Source: a virus (taxonomy: Duplodnaviria; Heunggongvirae; Uroviricota; Caudoviricetes). Taken from it: a stretch of DNA of 7,722 nt. The notes beneath the pieces are model-generated. The model was not told where the DNA came from. It saw nothing but the letters and a program-made list of their open reading frames with translations, and did not search any database. A program made the position numbers and the translations under genes. Positions 1-6,873 of the stretch are shown in pieces. The number at the start of each line of letters is the position of its first letter. The stretch's first letter is position 1. The stretch lies in IMG/VR virus record IMGVR_UViG_3300014846_000039, one strand, 5' to 3'.

Positions 1-426
1 ACGCTGGCGGTGGTAACCGCAACGGGGCGGCTGGCACGCGTTAATCAGAACGGTAAATTTCGTTACTGCATGCCGGGGGGTAATTTACCAGCAGATCCGA
101 AAACCGCGCCGGTAACGGAAAATGATGGTAAGGCCTTTCCTCAGCCAGCAGGTGCTGCGTTACCAGTCCGGGAAGCCGCAACACAGGAAGAAATTAAAAC
201 AGAAACTGTGGCGGACATTGTGCAGCCGTTGCCATCGTTTACCGAAACGCAAGCAGATGAGCTGATTTTTCCGTCCCTTCGCAGGGCAAACCTGGCGCTG
301 CGCAGGGCGAAAAGTGATGTTCAGAAGTGGGAGCGAGTCTGCGCCGCGCTGCGGGAGCTGAACAAGCACCGGGATATTGTTCGACAGATTACTGATTCTT
401 CCCGCCGTGTTGTATCGGAAAAGTGA
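1..426 (+). CDS. Hypothetical phage protein, 3' portion only (5' end lies upstream of the window)
   Basis: Frame 1 is open from nt 1 to TGA at 424-426 with no in-window upstream stop; the GTG at 10 in the ORF track is probably an internal codon. No motif recognised. Followed by a well-placed RBS and start of the next gene. Confidence 0.5.
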
Positions 427-441
427 TTGCCGGAGGCGCTT

Positions 442-867
442 ATGGCAAAAGTATTTACACAAGAAGAGCGGGAAAAAATTAAAGGGCAGGTTGTTGAACT
501 TGTACGTCTGAGCGGTCGCGAGACGTTGCGGCAACTGGAAGCCAAGACAGGTGCGACAAGATATCTGATGAGTGTTCTCGCCAGAGAGCTGGTTGCCAGT
601 GGCGATGTATACAACTCTGGTTACGGGTTATTCCCGTCTGAACAGGCGCGTAAGGACTGGCAAAATGCTCGCAAAAAACTCTCAAGGGCAAAGGTGAAGA
701 AACCTGCAGTGGTTGATCCGGACCTTATCTGGTCGTTACCAGACGGCGAAATACGCCGCTACGACAGGCGCCTGAACATAATCTGTCGCGAGTGCCGGAA
801 GAGCGAAGCTATGCAGCGTGTACTGGCATTTTATCAAGGAAATGTTAGGTATTTTAGACGTTACTAG
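442..867 (+). CDS. Hypothetical prophage protein (about 141 aa)
   Basis: ATG at 442 preceded by GGAGG at 432-436 (5-nt spacing); ORF track lists 427..867 from a TTG, but the ATG with this RBS is the more plausible start. Stop TAG 865-867. No family recognised. Confidence 0.55.
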   Translation: MAKVFTQEEREKIKGQVVELVRLSGRETLRQLEAKTGATRYLMSVLARELVASGDVYNSGYGLFPSEQARKDWQNARKKLSRAKVKKPAVVDPDLIWSLPDGEIRRYDRRLNIICRECRKSEAMQRVLAFYQGNVRYFRRY

Positions 868-1020
868 ATTAAAGAGCATTAGTTCAGATGTGAATTGACA
901 TTTTCATGGCGCAGGGTAGAGCCAGCGTGGTTGTCCGCTTTGCGTCAAAACCAGATATTACCAGATTTAGACATATATTCCCGATAGCCCTGCTCTGATG
1001 CTACACTCTGTGCTATTTTC

Positions 1021-1707
1021 ATGACCCCAATAAAAATATTTATGACTATTGCTGATTTCAAACGGCCTAAATTGGAGCTCCCAAACGGGGCAAACAAACT
1101 ACTACTGCACTCTTGCTGTGCTCCATGTTCCGGTGAAGTGATGGAGGCGCTTCAGGCCTCGGGAATCGACTACACCATCTTTTTCTACAACCCGAACATT
1201 CATCCTCAGAAAGAGTATTTAATTCGTAAGGATGAAAATATTCGCTTTGCTGAACAACACGGCGTGCCGTTTATCGATGCTGATTACGACACCGACAACT
1301 GGTTTGAACGTGCCAAAGGAATGGAATGGGAGCCTGAGAGGGGGATCCGTTGTACCATGTGTTTTGACATGCGTTTTGAGCGGACAGCGTTGTACGCTGC
1401 TGAAAATGGTTTCAGTGTGATCAGCAGTTCACTGGGCATTTCACGCTGGAAAAATATGCAGCAGGTTAACGAGTGTGGGCGGCGAGCTGTTGCGCATTAT
1501 CCGGGTATGGTGTACTGGGATTATAACTGGCGCAAGCAGGGCGGCTCGTCCCGTATGATTGAAATCAGCAAGCGCGAAAAATTCTATCAGCAGGAATATT
1601 GTGGCTGTGTGTATTCTCTGCGCGATACCAATCTACACCGCAAATCTCAGGGACGCCCTCTTATCAAAATTGGCCAACTCCACTACGGAAAAGAAGAGAA
1701 GGAGTGA
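1021..1707 (+). CDS. queH: Epoxyqueuosine reductase QueH-like protein (DUF208 family)
   Basis: 228-aa ORF with the N-terminal [11 protein letters not shown] cysteine motif and further conserved Cys (CTMCFD, CGC) that I associate with DUF208/QueH. No obvious Shine-Dalgarno before 1021; in-frame alternative start ATG at 1042. Assignment by motif memory only. Confidence 0.6.
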
Positions 1708-1945
1708 TTTTATGGATCACCTTTCTGATTGATTTCATATTGGCGAGGTGACGTGAGTTAAGTAGAATGGCTGCGGGGGGCTTGAGGCTATCTGTCTCAG
1801 GCATGAACACTGAAAGGCAGATAGAGAAAAGCCCCAGTTAACATTTCGCGTCCTGCAAGACGCTTAACATTAATCTGAGGCCCAATCTATGTCTCACAAA
1901 TGTAGGTTAGCCTCTTACGTGCCGAAAGGCAAGGGGAAGCAGGCT

Positions 1946-2209
1946 ATGAAGCAGCAAAAGGCGATGTTAATCGCCCTGATCGTCATCTGTTTAACCGTCA
2001 TTGTGACGGCACTGGTAACGAGGAAAGACCTCTGCGAGGTACGAATCCGAACCGGCCAGACGGAGGTCGCTGTCTTCACAGCTTTGCCAGGCATCCTCAA
2101 CGCACCCGCACTTAACCCGCTTCGGCGGGTTTTTGCATTAGTCTGGTTGACAAAAATAGAAAAATGCGAAAATATGTGGTTTACGAATTCTAAAAAAAGC
2201 GAAACTTGA
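1946..2209 (+). CDS. hokD: Hok/Gef-family membrane toxin, HokD(RelF)-like for the first 46 codons, with replaced and extended 3' end (possible pseudogene or variant)
   Basis: ATG 1946 with SD AAGGGGA at 1931-1937. Residues 1-46 (MKQQKAMLIALIVICLTVIVTALVTRKDLCEVRIRTGQTEVAVFTA) match HokD/RelF as I remember it; canonical Hok proteins are about 50 aa, but here the frame runs on to TGA 2207-2209 (87 aa) through a terminator hairpin and a promoter-like sequence. The ORF-track start at 1889 is in frame but upstream of the SD-supported ATG. Confidence 0.65.
   Translation: MKQQKAMLIALIVICLTVIVTALVTRKDLCEVRIRTGQTEVAVFTALPGILNAPALNPLRRVFALVWLTKIEKCENMWFTNSKKSET
2115..2134 (+). repeat. Direct repeat copy 1 (acccgcttcggcgggttttt), identical to 3950-3969
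   Basis: Exact 20-nt identity read directly from the sequence. Confidence 0.85.
2116..2134 (+). terminator. Rho-independent terminator-like hairpin (5-bp GC stem cccgc/gcggg, TTCG tetraloop, T5 run)
   Basis: Stem 2116-2120 pairs with 2125-2129, loop ttcg 2121-2124, T-run 2130-2134; lies inside the extended hok frame and just upstream of the cassette promoter-like element. Confidence 0.55.
2147..2176 (+). promoter_or_regulatory. Putative sigma70 promoter for the cassette (perfect -35 TTGACA, weak AT-rich -10)
   Basis: TTGACA at 2147-2152; about 17 nt downstream an AT-rich -10 candidate (aaatat 2170-2175); 35 nt before ATG 2211. The -10 is poor, so low confidence. Confidence 0.3.
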
Positions 2210-2210
2210 A

Positions 2211-2861
2211 ATGAATGAAAATCAGTTAGCTCCTTGTTGGGAATTTCAACCTTATCTTGCTGAAAACTATGTTCGCCACTTGTTGGCGGAGATCGCTAAC
2301 GTACTTGAGCAGCTGTACTATCATAAGCACGCATTAGACAGCAACTGGTCTGAAGGTGTAAGGGCTTATGATTGGGTCAGAAATCATCTTATTCAAAATG
2401 AAGATGCAATTCCTGGCCTTGAGATGATTTCCAAGGGGTTGGACTATGTAGTTGCTTTAAATAAAGTTCCGCTACAATTTACCAAAGATTGCATTAATAA
2501 CCCCAAAAAGAAACATCGTCTGCGTCGAAATAAAGTAGAGTATGAGCAGCTCTCATTGTTTGGTGATGTTGAGGCTGAGCAAGATATTACATGGCGAGTC
2601 ATAGCTGAGCCTTTTTTATCCGAAGAGGGCGATGGTGAATTAGAGTCCACACTGCCTCGTTGGGAGGTAGCTCTTGTTGGATTTAATACTTATGGTGCTC
2701 AGATTAGTATAGTTTCTCATCAATCTACAGCATCGATGCCGCTTATGCCTCTTGATTATAACACACTCCCTGACGAAGCGGAGATTAATAAGGTGCCTCT
2801 TCGTCGGCGTACGAAGGATAAAGATTTGGATGTGAGCAGTGATGGAACATCAGGTGAATAA
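2211..2861 (+). CDS. Hypothetical protein, 216 aa, no recognisable family; first gene of the inserted cassette
   Basis: ATG 2211, TAA 2859-2861; overlaps the downstream gene by 20 nt (operon-like). AT-rich codon usage (hand-counted samples about 33-38% G+C versus about 50% in flanking genes). No clear SD. Acidic protein with two basic patches (NPKKKHRLRRNK, VPLRRRTKDKD); no TM segment or catalytic motif recognised. Confidence 0.6.
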   Translation: MNENQLAPCWEFQPYLAENYVRHLLAEIANVLEQLYYHKHALDSNWSEGVRAYDWVRNHLIQNEDAIPGLEMISKGLDYVVALNKVPLQFTKDCINNPKKKHRLRRNKVEYEQLSLFGDVEAEQDITWRVIAEPFLSEEGDGELESTLPRWEVALVGFNTYGAQISIVSHQSTASMPLMPLDYNTLPDEAEINKVPLRRRTKDKDLDVSSDGTSGE

Positions 2862-3945
2862 CTTCACTGAGTATCGGGGTGATAAGCTCAAACTAGCGAG
2901 AATGGCTGTTGGGCTTTCTTGTGAAGAGTTAGCCGAAAAAATTGGCAAGACAAAGCAATTCGTTAGCAAACTGGAGAAGGGGTGCAGGCCATCGGAGCAA
3001 TGTCTTGAGTTAATATCTTCAGCGCTTATGATTAAGTCCAGTTTTCTTTTTACTGAACGAAAATACGCTCTGGAAAGTGATGTCTGCCATTTTCGGAGTA
3101 AGAAGTCCAGGACTCAAACGCTGACTAATAGTGTATTGGCCAGGGCTGAGATTCTTAATATTATAATTTCTGCTGTTGAAGGTGAAATCGAATTTCCTGA
3201 CGTTAACATACCGGAGCACCCAGGGGCTGAATTACTTACTCCGAATGATATTGAGCGAGTGGCAGAAGATTGTCGCCGTGCCTGGAATTTAGGTCTTGGC
3301 CCTATATCATCAATGGTTAAATTGGCGGAGAGTTTAGGGGTAATCGTTGCGCATGTTACGGGAGTCGATGATCGTGTTGATGCTTTTACTGTTCACAATA
3401 ACAGGCCTGTTATCATCAGGAACAATGTTAAAAAAAGCATATGTAGATTTCGCTCTGATTTAGGTCATGAATTAGGGCATTTAGTAATGCATGAGGGCAT
3501 AACGACAGGTGATAAACTTACGGAATCACAAGCCGATCACTTTTCGAGCGCCTTATTAGTTCCCAGGTTATCTTTCATTAAAGAATTTCCACGAATACGA
3601 GGTAAGCAATTCGACTGGAATGCTCTGGTTGAATTTAAACTTAGATGGAAAATCAGCCTTAAAATGTGTATTTATCGAGCCAGCGCATTAGGCTTATTGA
3701 CCCAGGAACAGGCAAGAACTGGCTATATGCATCTTAATTCCAGAGGGTATACGAGAGTTGAACCTGGTGATGAACTTTTGCGCCCTGAAGAACCCGGCAT
3801 GCTGGCCGAGGCGATTGAAATGCTGGATGATGCAACCTGGCTAAGAATTCTTATGAAAACTGGCTTGAGCCAAGATTTAATTCGTGAGTTGTTCTCCATC
3901 AACAGACCTATTACAAATCCAAGAAATATTTTCCAGATTGTTTGA
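2842..3945 (+). CDS. HTH_XRE DNA-binding domain fused to ImmA/IrrE-family (COG2856, M78-like) zinc metallopeptidase, with a C-terminal extension of about 110 aa
   Basis: N-terminal XRE-type HTH (LKLARMAVGLSCEELAEKIGKTKQFVSKLEKG); HEXXH zinc motif HELGH encoded at 3466-3480; downstream third-ligand motif typical of ImmA/IrrE (ESQADHFSSALLVP). ORF track starts at GTG 2839; the adjacent ATG at 2842 is preferred. Stop TGA 3943-3945, followed immediately by a terminator. Confidence 0.8.
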   Translation: MEHQVNNFTEYRGDKLKLARMAVGLSCEELAEKIGKTKQFVSKLEKGCRPSEQCLELISSALMIKSSFLFTERKYALESDVCHFRSKKSRTQTLTNSVLARAEILNIIISAVEGEIEFPDVNIPEHPGAELLTPNDIERVAEDCRRAWNLGLGPISSMVKLAESLGVIVAHVTGVDDRVDAFTVHNNRPVIIRNNVKKSICRFRSDLGHELGHLVMHEGITTGDKLTESQADHFSSALLVPRLSFIKEFPRIRGKQFDWNALVEFKLRWKISLKMCIYRASALGLLTQEQARTGYMHLNSRGYTRVEPGDELLRPEEPGMLAEAIEMLDDATWLRILMKTGLSQDLIRELFSINRPITNPRNIFQIV

Positions 3946-3949
3946 GTAT

Positions 3950-3969
3950 ACCCGCTTCGGCGGGTTTTT
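3950..3969 (+). repeat. Direct repeat copy 2 (acccgcttcggcgggttttt), identical to 2115-2134
   Basis: Exact 20-nt identity read directly from the sequence. Confidence 0.85.
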
Positions 3970-3970
3970 T
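3951..3970 (+). terminator. Rho-independent terminator (cccgc / TTCG loop / gcggg, T6 run) ending the cassette
   Basis: Stem 3951-3955 / 3960-3964, loop 3956-3959, T-run 3965-3970; 5 nt after the stop codon of the peptidase gene. Confidence 0.6.
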
Positions 3971-3989
3971 GTTTTTATTTTCAACGTGT

Positions 3990-4019
3990 TTGAAGTTTTG
4001 GACGGTGCCAGAATAGAAT
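3990..4019 (+). promoter_or_regulatory. Putative promoter (TTGAAG, 18-nt spacer, TAGAAT) upstream of the small ORFs
   Basis: -35-like TTGAAG 3990-3995 and -10-like TAGAAT 4014-4019; sequence-only guess. Confidence 0.25.
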
Positions 4020-4054
4020 CAAAAATACTTAAGTAGCGCGCAGGGAGAAGAGGG

Positions 4055-4276
4055 ATGGACCCCGAACAGGGGGAGTGCTATTTATCTGGAAGGATTCTGT
4101 TGATGAAAATCGAAGAATTACGTGAAATTTTTAGTGAAGATGGCCTCTATGCTGTGCGCGTTGAGAATGGGGGTATTACCTACACAGCGTTAATTCCTGA
4201 TGATCATGTAGTGTTATCTGTTGAGGCATTCATTGAATACTTGGAAAGACTCGGTTTCAAGGTAGTTCGGGAATAA
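4055..4276 (+). CDS. Hypothetical small phage protein (73 aa; 57 aa if started at ATG 4103)
   Basis: ATG 4055 preceded by purine-rich GGGAGAAGAGGG (4043-4054); alternative ATG 4103 preceded by GGAAGGA (4088-4094). Stop TAA 4274-4276. No family recognised. Confidence 0.5.
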   Translation: MDPEQGECYLSGRILLMKIEELREIFSEDGLYAVRVENGGITYTALIPDDHVVLSVEAFIEYLERLGFKVVRE

Positions 4277-4335
4277 GTTATAATACGTGAGCCAGCCTGA
4301 ACAACTGGCACCTGCTGCGCCAGCAGAGACAACCG

Positions 4336-4608
4336 ATGGCGCACAATACCAAACACCACAATTCTGATGCCGACCCTGCCAGCAGACACGGACGGCGCTC
4401 TCACGCATTCAAATATGACTGGTACCAGCATGACCAATGCACTGAAGAACAGGCCGAGTGGCTGATTCAGAATTACCGCAGACGTGGATACCAGTTTCAG
4501 AAAGGCCTCAGTCCTGACTTCCGACACTGGATAATTTCCGTCAGGCTCCCTTATTCCGAACGCCCGCCGCGTCCGTCCCGCACATATCAGCAACGCATCT
4601 GGAGGTAA
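4336..4608 (+). CDS. Hypothetical small basic protein (90 aa)
   Basis: ORF from the track; no clear SD; its stop TAA 4606-4608 is embedded in the RBS/start of the next gene, suggesting coupling. Positionally analogous to the small gene (rem) that I recall between hokD and ydfU in the K-12 Qin prophage, but the sequence was not recognised. Confidence 0.4.
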   Translation: MAHNTKHHNSDADPASRHGRRSHAFKYDWYQHDQCTEEQAEWLIQNYRRRGYQFQKGLSPDFRHWIISVRLPYSERPPRPSRTYQQRIWR

Positions 4609-4609
4609 C

Positions 4610-5668
4610 GTGCGGGTATTACTTCGACCTGTTCTGGTACCGGAACTCAGTCTGGTTATCGTTAAGCCAGGCCGTGAATCAATGTCAGTATTCCATAACG
4701 GCAGAATATTGGTGGAACCGGAACCCAAAAACATGCGCAGTCTTCCGTCCGGCGTCGTTGCAGCCGTTAGCCAGCCGTTGGCTGAGGATAAAACATTACT
4801 ACCATTTTTCAGCGATGAGCGGGTAATTCGTGCAGCAGGTGGTGCAGGTGCACTGTCTGACTGGTTATTACGTCACGTGAAATCCTGCCAGTGGCCACAC
4901 GGCGATTATCATCACAGCGAAACAGTCATTCACCGTTACGGTACCGGCGCGATGGTGTTGTGCTGGCACTGTGACAACCAGCTGCGCAACCAGACATCAG
5001 AATCACTCGATCAACTTGCTCAGCAGAATCTGGTTGCCTGGATGATTGACGTCATCCGTCACGCAATAAGCGGTACGCAGGAGAGGGAGTTATCGCTGGC
5101 CGAATTATCCTGGTGGGCGGCCTGCAATCAGGTGGTGGATGCACTACCTGAGGCAGTAGCGCGTCGTTCGCTGGGATTACCGGTGGAAACAATCCGCTCC
5201 GTATACCGTGAGAGTGACATCGTACCGGGAGAACAGACAGCCATCAGCATACTGAAGCAGCGCACAAAAAATATTGCGCTTCCACTTCACGTCCACCAGC
5301 AACAGCCCCCACCCCAGGAAAAGACGTTAGTAAGCATCGCCGTTGATCCGGAGTCTCCGGCTCAGTACCTCCAGCGCCAGAAACCACAACGGGAAGAGAT
5401 GCCTGTATACACGCGCTGGGTAAAAACGCAGAAATGCATGACGTGCGGTAATCAGGCAGATGATCCGCATCACATCATTGGTCATGGACTGGGAGGGATG
5501 GGAACAAAGGCTGACGATTTGTTTGTTATTCCGTTGTGCCGTAAATGCCATAACAAACTACATGCCGGAGTAAAAGATTTTGAAGAAAAACACGGCAGTC
5601 AGCTGTTGTTGCTGATTCGTTTTTTAATGCACGCGAGAAATTCGGGTGTTCTGAAGTGGAAAGCATAA
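4610..5668 (+). CDS. DUF968-family prophage protein (YdfU-like) with C-terminal HNH-like Cys/His motif
   Basis: GTG 4610 preceded by GGAGG 4601-4605; alternative ATG at 4682. C-terminus carries CMTCGNQADDPHHIIGHGLGG...CRKCHNKLH, a Cys/His pattern I associate with DUF968/HNH-like zinc-binding. Stop TAA 5666-5668 directly abuts the rusA ATG. Confidence 0.65.
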   Translation: MRVLLRPVLVPELSLVIVKPGRESMSVFHNGRILVEPEPKNMRSLPSGVVAAVSQPLAEDKTLLPFFSDERVIRAAGGAGALSDWLLRHVKSCQWPHGDYHHSETVIHRYGTGAMVLCWHCDNQLRNQTSESLDQLAQQNLVAWMIDVIRHAISGTQERELSLAELSWWAACNQVVDALPEAVARRSLGLPVETIRSVYRESDIVPGEQTAISILKQRTKNIALPLHVHQQQPPPQEKTLVSIAVDPESPAQYLQRQKPQREEMPVYTRWVKTQKCMTCGNQADDPHHIIGHGLGGMGTKADDLFVIPLCRKCHNKLHAGVKDFEEKHGSQLLLLIRFLMHARNSGVLKWKA

Positions 5669-6049
5669 ATGACCGAACGCATAGAATTTGTTTTGCCTTA
5701 CCCGCCGACGGTGAACACTTACTGGCGACGCCGTGGCAGCACATATTTTGTATCAAAAGCCGGGGAGCGTTATCGCCGGGCAGTGGCGCTTATTGTTCGC
5801 CAGCAGCGGCTGAAATTAAGCCTGTCCGGAAGGTTGGCAATAAAAATTATTGCAGAACCACCGGATAAGCGCCGCCGTGACCCGGACAATATTCTGAAAG
5901 CGCCGCTGGATGCGCTGACGCATGCGGGGTTGCTAATGGACGATGAGCAGTTTGATGAAATCAATATCGTTCGTGCTCAGCCAGTATCTGGTGGACGTCT
6001 GGGGGTGAAGATTTACCCCATAATGCTTGAAGGGCAGGTCAAAAAATGA
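5669..6049 (+). CDS. rusA: Holliday-junction resolvase RusA family
   Basis: 126-aa ORF with RusA-like blocks (LPYPPTVNTYWRR; DKRRRDPDNILKAPLDALTHAGLLMDDEQ; GGRLGV) comparable to E. coli RusA. Stop overlaps the next start (ATGA at 6046-6049). Confidence 0.85.
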   Translation: MTERIEFVLPYPPTVNTYWRRRGSTYFVSKAGERYRRAVALIVRQQRLKLSLSGRLAIKIIAEPPDKRRRDPDNILKAPLDALTHAGLLMDDEQFDEINIVRAQPVSGGRLGVKIYPIMLEGQVKK

Positions 6050-6702
6050 AACTGGAAGATTTACCGAAATACTACTCCCCAAAATCCCCCGGCCTGACTG
6101 ATGCATCGGCCTCAACGTCGAAAGATGCGCTGAGTATCACTGATGTGATGGCCGCGCAGGGCATGACACAGAATCGGGCTGAGATGGGGTTTTCTGCGTT
6201 CCTTGGGAAAATGGGCATTAGTATGAATGACAGAGAGCGGGCAACAGAATTGCTGACAGAATATGCACTCAGTCGGTGTGATCGCGTGGCGGCGTTAAGA
6301 AAACTCCCGGCAGAAATAAAACCGGTAGTGATGCGCATTATGGCTTCGTACGCTTTTGAGGATTATGCCCGCAGCGCAGCGAGTAAAAAGCAGTGCCCTT
6401 GTTGCTATGGGGAAAAATTTATTGAAAGCGTAGTTTTTACAAACAAGGTCCAGTATCCGGATGGTAAGCCGCCGGTATGGGCAAAGTGTACGAAAGGTGT
6501 GTATCCGTCTTACTGGGAAGAATGGAAAAAAAATCGGGAGGTGGTAAAAGTTGCCTGTCCGGAGTGTGGCGGAAAGGGTGAGGTTTCCACCGCCTGTAAG
6601 GATTGCCGTGGGCGTGGTGTCGCCATTCATCGTGAAGAGTCGGTAAAACGTGGTATGCCTGTTATCAGAGACTGCCAGCGTTGTGGTTGGTCGTGGCTGT
6701 GA
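6046..6702 (+). CDS. Late-gene antitermination protein Q family
   Basis: 218-aa ORF immediately after rusA (typical lambdoid order), with Cys-rich zinc-finger-like segments (CPCCYGEKF, CPECGGKGEVSTACKDCRGRG, CQRCGW) and followed by a promoter plus intrinsic terminator, as expected for Q / pR' / tR'. Confidence 0.75.
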   Translation: MKLEDLPKYYSPKSPGLTDASASTSKDALSITDVMAAQGMTQNRAEMGFSAFLGKMGISMNDRERATELLTEYALSRCDRVAALRKLPAEIKPVVMRIMASYAFEDYARSAASKKQCPCCYGEKFIESVVFTNKVQYPDGKPPVWAKCTKGVYPSYWEEWKKNREVVKVACPECGGKGEVSTACKDCRGRGVAIHREESVKRGMPVIRDCQRCGWSWL

Positions 6703-6873
6703 AAGGCTGCCATCAACGGAGGCATTTAATGCCATATGCAAAGTGACGAGTGCTATCACGCTTGATACGTGGAAAAAATCAGTGAAACGCTTTTACGATA
6801 CGTTGGTGGTTCGGTTTGACATTGAAGAGGCATGGGCGGAGCGGCAGTTAAAGAGGGTAACGCGATAGTGTTG

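What the first reader, a model, noticed from the sequence alone, without database searches (positions are those of the whole stretch)
1021..4276. Variable cargo region between replication-side genes and the DUF968-rusA-Q block
The conserved coupled block DUF968 / rusA / Q (overlapping or abutting stops and starts at 5666-5671 and 6046-6049) is preceded here by QueH-like, hok and the cassette. From memory, the equivalent position in the K-12 Qin prophage holds relB-relE-hokD upstream of rem/ydfU/Q. That would make this a cargo hotspot where different toxin or accessory modules are exchanged.
Basis: partly seen in the sequence, partly recalled or inferred. Interest (0 to 1): 0.45.

Follow-up and report, generated by a model that had tools for sequence, protein, structure and literature searches.

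The report
Defence-gene hotspot in lambdoid prophages
This stretch of an E. coli lambda-like prophage is a genuine swap zone: between the replication genes and a conserved recombination-gene block, related prophages carry dozens of different toxin-antitoxin and anti-phage defence modules, and this window holds a QueH gene, a damaged hok toxin and a RosmerTA defence cassette.

Summary
The window is the ninR (replication-to-Q) region of a Rac/Qin-type E. coli prophage. The invariant anchor is a 90-aa gene plus DUF968 plus RusA, not Q, whose allele varies. This anchor occurs at 9,154 places in 4,547 of 5,426 complete E. coli genomes. Upstream lie two variable slots, separated by a conserved sok/hok module.

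- **Slot A** (window 847-1754) holds QueH here. Elsewhere it holds Kiwa, CBASS, Septu, several PADLOC candidate systems, the Paa adhesin or small nin-type ORFs.
- **Slot B** (2135-4290) holds a RosmerTA defence system (rmrT 2211-2861, rmrA 2842-3945) plus a short rem-like gene. Elsewhere it is empty or holds Rem only, two other Rosmer variants, ParDE, RelE/XRE, an XRE+M78 pair or a lipoprotein. Where hok is absent, a type II R-M system or IetAS sits next to the anchor.

The Rosmer cassette is bracketed by a perfect 20-nt direct repeat of the hok terminator hairpin. One locus (L159) is the exact unoccupied form. The cassette is 99.8-100% identical in prophages whose DUF968 DNA is only 80-89% identical, which indicates recent horizontal exchange. 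Breakpoints vary, so exchange is by recombination rather than a site-specific mechanism. It is a new instance of a known kind of system.

The parts
1..426 (+). 3' part of the DUF1627 gene, on the conserved replication-side flank
   Evidence: Pfam PF07789, E = 2e-82. RefSeq annotation of the near-identical locus L001.
442..867 (+). DUF977 gene. Its 3' end (about 846) is the left boundary of variable slot A.
   Evidence: Pfam PF06163, E = 7e-28. Homology to relatives ends at window 846 in 27 loci.
847..1754 (+). Slot A cargo in this window: the QueH module (ORF 1021-1707; the RefSeq start corresponds to 1042)
   Evidence: Pfam QueH, E = 1e-65. L002 and L003 have 2.6-2.9 kb of small ORFs here instead. 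The module is in 1,234 of 5,426 E. coli genomes, against 4,547 for the anchor. Other loci hold Kiwa, CBASS, Septu, PDC systems or Paa at this position.
1755..2134 (+). Conserved sok/hok module that divides the two slots. It has a promoter-like site at 1740-1768, an hok mRNA leader/sok region at 1776-1951, hok codons at 1946-2083, a 56-nt deletion junction at 2084|2085, an fbi-like 3' element at about 2095-2107, and a terminator hairpin at 2114-2134.
   Evidence: Rfam RF01794, 116 bits. Pfam HOK_GEF. Promoter and terminator scan. Deletion relative to L001-L003. The 5'-3' fold-back is retained. Homology to relatives starts at 1752-1763 in 43 loci.
2115..2134 (+). Left copy of the 20-nt direct repeat ACCCGCTTCGGCGGGTTTTT (the hok terminator hairpin)
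   Evidence: the repeat finder family D1, 100% identity. The 14-mer occurs twice in the window against 0.00 expected by chance.
2135..3949 (+). RosmerTA defence cassette: TTGACA -35-like hexamer at 2147-2152, rmrT (toxin) at 2211-2861, rmrA (HTH + M78 Zn-peptidase antitoxin with HELGH motif) at 2842-3945, with a 20-nt gene overlap
   Evidence: PADLOC RmrT 4.6e-25 and RmrA 6e-105. Pfam HTH_3 plus Peptidase_M78. Present at 239 places in 237 E. coli genomes, 224 of them at 99% identity or more. It is 99.8-100% identical in loci whose DUF968 DNA is 80-89% identical.
3950..3969 (+). Right copy of the 20-nt direct repeat, which also serves as the terminator of the Rosmer cassette
3970..4290 (+). Short rem-like module (ORF 4055-4276; the likely start is ATG 4103, giving 57 aa)
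   Evidence: phrog_340, E = 1.8e-18. The same 57-aa gene sits directly after the hok terminator in L159, which lacks Rosmer. RefSeq calls it a partial pseudogene.
4291..4335 (+). Conserved 45-nt leader GCCAGCCTGAAC...CAACCG, the right boundary of slot B
   Evidence: It is the same sequence in empty, Rosmer, lipoprotein, ParDE and XRE+M78 loci. Identity to relatives drops from 100% to about 83% at this point.
4336..6049 (+). Invariant anchor: p90 (phrog_1212, 4336-4608), DUF968 Orf-like/HNH gene (4610-5668) and RusA (5669-6049)
   Evidence: p90 lies immediately upstream of DUF968 in 215 anchors. Megablast finds the anchor at 9,154 places in 4,547 of 5,426 genomes.
6046..6868 (+). Q antiterminator, translationally coupled to rusA (ATGA overlap). 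In this window it is frameshifted by a 1-nt insertion at 6687. The allele varies between relatives.
   Evidence: phrog_127 and phrog_25523. Alignment to L001 and L003. The Q marker is absent or only about 40% identical in many loci.

Best explanation
The window is the ninR (replication-to-Q) segment of a Rac/Qin-type lambdoid prophage of E. coli. It contains a two-slot cargo hotspot.

Three blocks are conserved: the DUF1627/DUF977 genes on the left, the 380-bp sok/hok module in the middle, and the 45-nt leader plus p90-DUF968-RusA on the right. These blocks supply homology. Co-resident or co-infecting lambdoid phages recombine within them, so whatever lies between is exchanged as a unit.

The cargo consists of self-contained accessory modules (morons). 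In the window these are QueH in slot A and a RosmerTA toxin-antitoxin defence system in slot B. In a lysogen the cassette is presumably transcribed from its own promoter-like site (TTGACA at 2147) and stopped by its own copy of the hok terminator. The lytic genes downstream would then stay silent. RmrA (HTH plus Zn-peptidase) would hold the toxin RmrT in check until an infecting phage triggers abortive infection.

New cassettes enter or leave slot B by short-homology or illegitimate recombination at or near the terminator hairpin, which leaves it duplicated (20-23 nt) on both sides.

What is shown: the conserved flanks, the diversity and identity of the cargo, independent assortment of the two slots, the direct repeats, the exact unoccupied form, and the identity cliff at the slot boundaries.

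What is inferred: the recombination mechanism, expression in the lysogen, and defence activity.
For: Context:
- A prophage with racR/ydaS/ydaT-type immunity, replication genes, then Q, tRNAs and lysis genes.
- The ninR region is already known to be shuffled (PMC4118853).

Diversity:
- 39 DNA types of slot A in 58 loci, and 11 usable DNA types of slot B in 62 usable loci (65 clustered, 3 with empty sequence).
- 21 marker architectures in 77 anchors.
- Enlarged census of 215 anchors.

Cargo identified:
- Three RosmerTA variants.
- ParDE.
- NgoMIV-type R-M, IetAS and RelE/XRE.
- Kiwa, CBASS, PDC-S06, PDC-S15, PDC-S39, PDC-M68B and an NsnA-like protein.
- Septu, PDC-S33 and PD-Lambda-2_C.
- The Paa adhesin and relBE in K-12.

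Exchange:
- The cassette is 99.8-100% identical while p90 and DUF968 are 80-89% identical. This includes an E. albertii locus.
- 224 of 238 E. coli records carry it at 99% identity or more, whereas the anchor is 80-90% identical in most genomes.
- The slots assort independently.

Insertion footprint:
- A perfect 20-nt direct repeat at 2115-2134 and 3950-3969.
- The same duplication flanks Rosmer2, Rosmer3 and XRE+M78 cargo.
- L159 equals the window arrangement minus 1,835 bp, with a 21-nt overlap.
- The hairpin 14-mer occurs 199 times in 3.0 Mb of loci, and only at this locus.

RosmerTA is an experimentally validated defence and TA family (10.1101/2022.05.11.491447; PMC10440598).
Against: - No expression, toxicity or phage-challenge data exist for this cassette.
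- The promoter scan did not call a promoter at 2147.
- None of 50,697 sequenced phage records carries the cassette. The carriers seen may therefore be largely defective prophages. The window's own prophage has a frameshifted Q and a damaged hok.
- The sampled loci are the best 80 matches of each scan. They are not independent isolates, so the proportions are only indicative.
- The left limit of slot A was not verified in loci that lack the DUF977/DUF1627 markers.
- The hairpin duplication could also arise from unequal crossing-over between phages rather than from de novo insertion.
Confidence: 0.8

Rival explanations
1. Decay only. An ancestral prophage carried a long region, and the present variety is the result of different deletions in defective prophages, with no gain or exchange of modules.
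For: Many carriers look defective: the window has a frameshifted Q and a 56-nt hok deletion, and K-12 Qin is cryptic. Recombination between the two 20-nt hairpin copies would delete a cassette precisely. The 'empty' form L159 could therefore be a loss.
Against: The alternatives are unrelated sequences occupying the same coordinates, not nested subsets. The cassette is nearly identical across flanks that differ by 11-20%. An ancestor holding all the cargo types together would far exceed a phage genome.
Confidence: 0.07
2. Site-specific cassette system. The terminator hairpin acts as a recombination site, comparable to an integron attC, recognised by a phage enzyme such as the neighbouring HNH/Orf-like DUF968 protein or RusA. 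That enzyme would insert and excise the cassettes.
For: The same hairpin flanks five unrelated plus-strand cassettes and occurs nowhere else in 3.0 Mb of loci. The occupied and unoccupied forms differ by exactly one repeat plus the cassette. A nuclease and a resolvase are encoded next door.
Against: Breakpoints are not fixed. The lipoprotein cargo starts inside the hairpin, and the ParDE and RelE/XRE cargos replace the hairpin altogether, leaving zero copies. Slot A has no flanking repeat. No integrase-type gene is linked. An 80%-identical Rosmer homologue sits in a different ninR context with neither hok nor DUF968.
Confidence: 0.07
3. The cassette is an autonomous mobile element (a transposon or IS-borne passenger) that merely prefers this site.
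For: IS elements and a group II intron do occur in some copies of the region (H1; H31). The direct repeats resemble a target duplication.
Against: There is no transposase, integrase or inverted repeat inside 2135-3949. 20-23 nt is far longer than usual target duplications. All examined copies at 99% identity or more lie in the same slot, including the two 'plasmid' copies.
Confidence: 0.04

Closest known systems
[quoted passage not shown] 2022, PMC9122126; PMC13586616)
   Same: Conserved phage core genes flank a short interval whose content differs between otherwise related prophages. That content is rich in known and candidate anti-phage systems, and the systems are exchanged between elements of the same type.
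   Different: The phage family is different (lambdoid, Rac/Qin type) and so is the position (the ninR region between replication genes and Q). There are two adjacent slots divided by a conserved sok/hok type I TA module, and a duplicated terminator hairpin at plus-strand cassette ends. None of the cargo here has been tested experimentally.
Lambda ninR region and 'morons' of lambdoid phages (PMC4118853; the moron concept is cited in PMC9122126)
   Same: The position is the same, between the P-like replication genes and Q. It holds an Orf-like gene upstream of a Holliday-junction resolvase (RusA). The region is known to be shuffled, with gain of unrelated genes. The cargo has a promoter-like start and a terminator.
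   Different: Here the shuffling is resolved into defined slots with shared breakpoints, and the cargo is shown to be mostly defence and TA systems rather than small nin genes.
K-12 Qin prophage segment relB-relE-hokD-rem-ydfU-ydfT
   Same: The backbone order is the same: hok, then a rem-family gene, then an unannotated p90 homologue (70% identical), then DUF968, then Q. The hok terminator hairpin is present.
   Different: In Qin, relBE lies directly upstream of hokD where the window has QueH. There is no Rosmer cassette and no rusA, and the Q allele is only about 40% identical.
RosmerTA (RmrT/RmrA) anti-phage toxin-antitoxin systems (Millman et al. 2022; Ernits et al. 2023)
   Same: A two-gene operon with overlapping genes. 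The antitoxin has an N-terminal HTH and an M78/ImmA-type Zn-peptidase with HExxH. The toxin has no known domain. Both genes have strong PADLOC RmrA/RmrT matches.

Membership tests
Prophage-encoded defence hotspot (P2/P4 sense) | Interval bounded by conserved core genes of one phage family | tested here: met
   The DUF977 3' end, the sok/hok module and the p90-DUF968-RusA block are shared across 215 anchors.
Prophage-encoded defence hotspot (P2/P4 sense) | Many unrelated gene sets occupy the interval in related elements | tested here: met
   39 slot-A types in 58 loci and about 11 slot-B classes. 21 architectures in 77 anchors.
Prophage-encoded defence hotspot (P2/P4 sense) | Content enriched in known anti-phage systems | tested here: inconclusive
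   Many known systems were found: Rosmer x3, R-M, IetAS, Kiwa, CBASS, Septu and PDC candidates. No formal enrichment statistic against a background was computed.
Prophage-encoded defence hotspot (P2/P4 sense) | Cargo protects the lysogen against phages | not testable with these tools
   This needs plaque assays.
RosmerTA | Antitoxin with HTH plus Zn-peptidase (M78/ImmA) and an HExxH motif | tested here: met
   Pfam HTH_3 at residues 17-63 and Peptidase_M78 at 177-282. HELGH is present in the translation. PADLOC RmrA, E = 6e-105.
RosmerTA | Adjacent co-oriented toxin gene matching an RmrT profile | tested here: met
   rmrT at 2211-2861 overlaps rmrA by 20 nt. PADLOC RmrT PDLC03929, E = 4.6e-25.
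RosmerTA | Toxicity neutralised by the antitoxin, and anti-phage activity | not testable with these tools
   Only literature on other family members is available.
Moron | Extra DNA inserted between two genes that are adjacent in related phages | tested here: met
   L159 has hok terminator-rem'-p90 without the 1,835-bp insert. Empty sites (323 nt) occur in 68 anchors.
Moron | Own terminator | tested here: met
   A terminator-like hairpin plus T-run at 3950-3965/3969. This is a consensus match only.
Moron | Own promoter active in the lysogen | tested here: inconclusive
   TTGACA at 2147-2152 is shared by all three Rosmer variants. However, there is no good -10 hexamer and the scan did not call a promoter.
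[quoted passage not shown] | Hok/Gef peptide ORF with a sok/mok leader | tested here: met
   Pfam HOK_GEF, E = 1.5e-21. Rfam sok, 116 bits.
[quoted passage not shown] | Intact toxin reading frame | tested here: not met
   The 56-nt deletion removes the last 5 codons and the stop. The ORF is extended to 87 aa.
Lambdoid ninR region | Lies between the replication genes and Q and contains an Orf-like gene upstream of a junction resolvase | tested here: met
   The annotated neighbourhood of L001. DUF968 is described as Orf-like plus HNH in PMC4118853. RusA Pfam match.

The most novel reading that the evidence does not exclude
The 20-nt terminator hairpin may be more than a passive short homology. 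It could be a dedicated cassette-exchange site, processed by the adjacent phage recombination enzymes (the DUF968 Orf-like/HNH nuclease and the RusA resolvase). That would give lambdoid phages an integron-like way of capturing and shuffling defence cassettes next to their own recombination genes.
Probability: 0.07. Interest if true: 0.85.

Novelty: new member of a known kind. Interest (0 to 1): 0.5.

Why it matters
The anchor p90-DUF968-RusA is found in 84% of complete E. coli genomes, often several times per genome. A well-delimited pair of slots next to it is therefore a very large, easily indexed reservoir of prophage-borne immunity and toxin-antitoxin genes.

As with the P2/P4 hotspots, location alone can nominate new defence genes. 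Candidates here include the 130-aa lipoprotein, the Rem family, a 932-aa ORF, and several unannotated 330-520-aa ORFs and ORF pairs.

The near-identity of the Rosmer cassette across diverged prophages, and in E. albertii, gives a concrete case of how defence systems spread between resident prophages.

It also puts the long-known K-12 relBE-hokD locus in context, as one occupant of a general cargo site.

Tried and rejected
- **RmrA in the PDB.** Only the HTH domain matched.
- **Flanking repeats around the QueH module.** None found.
- **The cassette in isolated phages.** 0 of 50,697 records carry it. In plasmids there are 2 records, both in the same prophage context.
- **A fixed, site-specific insertion point.** Rejected because breakpoints differ between cargo types.
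- **Distant DUF968 homologues.** Those in Enterobacter, Kosakonia, Phytobacter and Symbiopectobacterium (41-53% identity) have neither hok nor the hairpin. The slot architecture is therefore specific to Escherichia/Shigella prophages.
- **Prior description of this hotspot.** Literature searches found only the general ninR mosaicism and the P2/P4 hotspots. The library is incomplete, so priority cannot be excluded.
- **The 56-nt hok deletion in other genomes.** All listed best matches span the deletion as two pieces.


Full report
**What the window is.** Megablast against complete E. coli genomes finds the whole window at 99.4% identity in a dozen chromosomes, and parts of it in 4,880 of 5,426 genomes. 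In the near-identical locus L001, RefSeq annotates a lambdoid prophage with this gene order: exonuclease, dicB, racR, ydaS/ydaT-type immunity genes, replication genes, DUF1627, DUF977, QueH, hokD, two genes, DUF968, RusA, antiterminator, DNA methyltransferase, tRNAs, lysis genes. The window is therefore the ninR-equivalent region between the replication genes and Q. That region is already described as heavily shuffled in lambdoid phages (PMC4118853).

**Checking the observation.**
- QueH: ORF 1021-1707, Pfam E = 1e-65.
- Hok: Pfam E = 1.5e-21.
- DUF968 (4610-5668) and RusA (5669-6049).
- The DUF968 stop abuts the rusA start, and rusA overlaps Q in ATGA at 6046-6049.
- The unnamed 'cassette' is a RosmerTA system. 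The ORF at 2211-2861 matches PADLOC RmrT (4.6e-25). The ORF at 2842-3945 matches RmrA (6e-105) and has HTH_3 and Peptidase_M78 domains.
- It is followed by a short rem-family gene (phrog_340).
- Rfam places the sok/hok leader at 1776-1951 (116 bits).

**The synteny test.** I collected 246 loci (3.0 Mb) around DUF968 homologues:
- three scans of IMG/VR;
- one scan of GTDB species representatives;
- annotated E. coli records.

A 90-aa gene (phrog_1212) always lies directly upstream of DUF968, and RusA almost always follows. Q varies in allele, and Qin-type prophages lack RusA. The invariant anchor is therefore p90-DUF968-RusA. It is found at 9,154 places in 4,547 genomes. Upstream of it, the sok/hok module is present in 175 of 197 informative anchors. 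It splits the variable DNA into two slots.

**Slot B (hok terminator to p90).** Measured from the hok ATG to the p90 ATG, the classes are:

| Interval length (nt) | Content | n |
|---|---|---|
| 321-323 | empty | 68 |
| 689-703 | Rem only, as in Qin | 57 |
| 453-667 | short rem-like genes | 18 |
| 987-988 | 130-aa lipoprotein | 10 |
| 2390-2540 | window-type RosmerTA | 12 |
| 2185-2187 | second Rosmer variant | 4 |
| 2156 | third Rosmer variant | 1 |
| 1373 | ParDE plus a lipoprotein | 2 |
| 1444 | RelE(PF06296)/XRE | 1 |
| 1671 | split XRE + M78 peptidase pair | 2 |

In 22 anchors without hok, the position next to p90 holds:
- ParDE (10);
- an NgoMIV-type type II R-M system (4);
- IetAS (1);
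- a PemK-like gene (1);
- RelE/XRE (1);
- Rem (1);
- none of my markers (4).

**Slot A (DUF977 to sok/hok).** Fifty-eight loci gave 39 DNA types. The breakpoints are shared: about 846 on the left and 1752-1763 on the right. The window's occupant, QueH, is in 1,234 genomes. Alternatives are:
- strings of small nin-type ORFs (DUF551, DUF7167, DUF4406, XF1762);
- the Paa adhesin;
- relBE in K-12;
- Kiwa, and CBASS (cyclase plus 2TM effector);
- PDC-S06, PDC-S15, PDC-S39 and PDC-M68B;
- an NsnA/GmrSD-like protein;
- Septu, PDC-S33 and a PD-Lambda-2_C-like protein;
- several large ORFs with no match.

The two slots assort independently. QueH is found with an empty, a lipoprotein or a Rosmer slot B. 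Rosmer is found with four slot-A types.

**Evidence for exchange rather than decay.**
- The cassette is 99.8-100% identical between the window and six other loci. In those loci p90 and DUF968 are 80-89% identical and sok/hok is 93-95% identical. One of them is an E. albertii contig.
- Across E. coli, 224 of 238 records carry the cassette at 99% identity or more. The anchor is 80-90% identical to the window in 4,454 of 4,561 records.
- The alternatives are unrelated sequences at the same coordinates, not nested deletions.

**Anatomy of the insertion.**
- The cassette is bracketed by a perfect 20-nt direct repeat, ACCCGCTTCGGCGGGTTTTT, at 2115-2134 and 3950-3969 (0.00 expected by chance). This is the hok terminator hairpin.
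- The other two Rosmer variants and the XRE+M78 cargo show the same 20-23-nt duplication.
- Locus L159 is the window's arrangement without the insert. It aligns up to the hairpin and resumes from the second hairpin, with a 21-nt overlap, a difference of 1,835 bp.
- The hairpin 14-mer occurs 199 times in the 3.0 Mb collected, and always at this locus.
- Breakpoints are not uniform. The lipoprotein cargo starts inside the hairpin. The minus-strand ParDE and RelE/XRE cargos remove it.
- I therefore favour short-homology or illegitimate recombination for the first insertion, followed by homologous exchange through the conserved flanks. I give a dedicated site-specific mechanism a low probability.
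- All three Rosmer variants begin with ...TGGTTGACAAA just after the T-run. This resembles CTGGTTTACAAT in the empty site. It may be a promoter, but the scan did not call one.

**How the cargo would work.** This part is inferred from the literature. RosmerTA systems are validated toxin-antitoxin defence systems in which a Zn-peptidase antitoxin restrains a variable toxin. Deletion of rmrA could not be obtained, possibly due to toxicity (10.1101/2022.05.11.491447). A phage-borne member depolarises membranes and protects against some coliphages (PMC10440598). The window's RmrT has no Pfam or PDB relative. A moderate model (pLDDT 65) gives only weak PD-(D/E)xK nuclease-like matches.

**Novelty.** Shuffling of ninR and prophage defence hotspots (P2, P4 and others) are both known (PMC4118853; PMC9122126; 10.1101/2022.05.12.491691). 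I found no description of this lambdoid hok/DUF968 hotspot in the searchable library. The library is incomplete, so I rate it a new member of a known kind.

**Limits.**
- The loci are the best 80 hits per scan and include near-duplicates, so counts are indicative only.
- Some slot-A left limits are unverified.
- No enrichment statistic was computed.
- No function was tested.

Noticed in passing
window 2084|2085 (hok 3' end): A 56-nt deletion relative to all relatives removes the last five hok codons, the stop codon and a stem-loop. The lost codons include the Tyr codon that a preprint reports as a TadA-edited Tyr-to-Cys site. The ORF now runs to 2209 (87 aa), while the 5'-3' fold-back of the mRNA is kept. 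The toxin is probably inactive. The deletion was not seen in the best E. coli matches.
   Followed up: partly
window 6326-6737 and 6687: Q carries a patch that matches the L003 allele rather than the otherwise identical L001, which suggests gene conversion. A 1-nt insertion at 6687 splits Q into two ORFs (6046-6702 and 6650-6868). It could be a real pseudogene or a sequencing error.
   Followed up: partly
window 1021-1707: A prophage-borne epoxyqueuosine reductase QueH is present in 1,234 of 5,426 E. coli genomes. From my own knowledge, E. coli already has the non-homologous QueG. No paper on a phage role was found, so its benefit to phage or host is unexplained.
   Followed up: partly
L094 (JAGZPX010000007.1): A contig labelled as a Veillonella parvula MAG carries an E. 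coli-type prophage segment: DUF977-QueH-Kiwa-hok-rem-DUF968. This is most likely a binning contaminant.
   Followed up: no
H151, Actinobacillus phage vB_Apl-pPE4 13211-13645: This record contains a sok/hok module 97% identical to the window's. That is unexpected for a Pasteurellaceae phage.
   Followed up: no
L039 4409-7207; L196 3137-4624; L221 2315-3769; L215 720-2849; L205 3244-4800; L093 4791-6131: Slot A holds large ORFs with little or no PADLOC match: 932, 495, 484, 370+333, 518 and 446 aa. Only the 932-aa ORF has a hit, a weak LmuA N-terminal match at 4.8e-07. By location they are candidate new defence genes.
   Followed up: partly
L112 (E. coli KL53) 6068-7802: An 80%-identical RosmerTA homologue lies in the ninR region of a different lambdoid backbone. 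That backbone has ead/Ea22, DUF550, DinI, DUF1367, DUF1364, RusA, YlcG and Q, but neither hok nor DUF968. The wider ninR region therefore also accepts this cargo.
   Followed up: partly
window 4277-4335 and the empty sites of relatives: A -10-like hexamer lies about 10 nt upstream of the conserved 45-nt p90 leader: TATAAT at 4281-4286 in the window, TACAAT in empty sites. It may be a promoter for p90-DUF968-RusA-Q.
   Followed up: no
L049 3955-5001 and 6664-7716: One IMG/VR contig has two DUF968-RusA anchors in tandem, about 2.7 kb apart.
   Followed up: no
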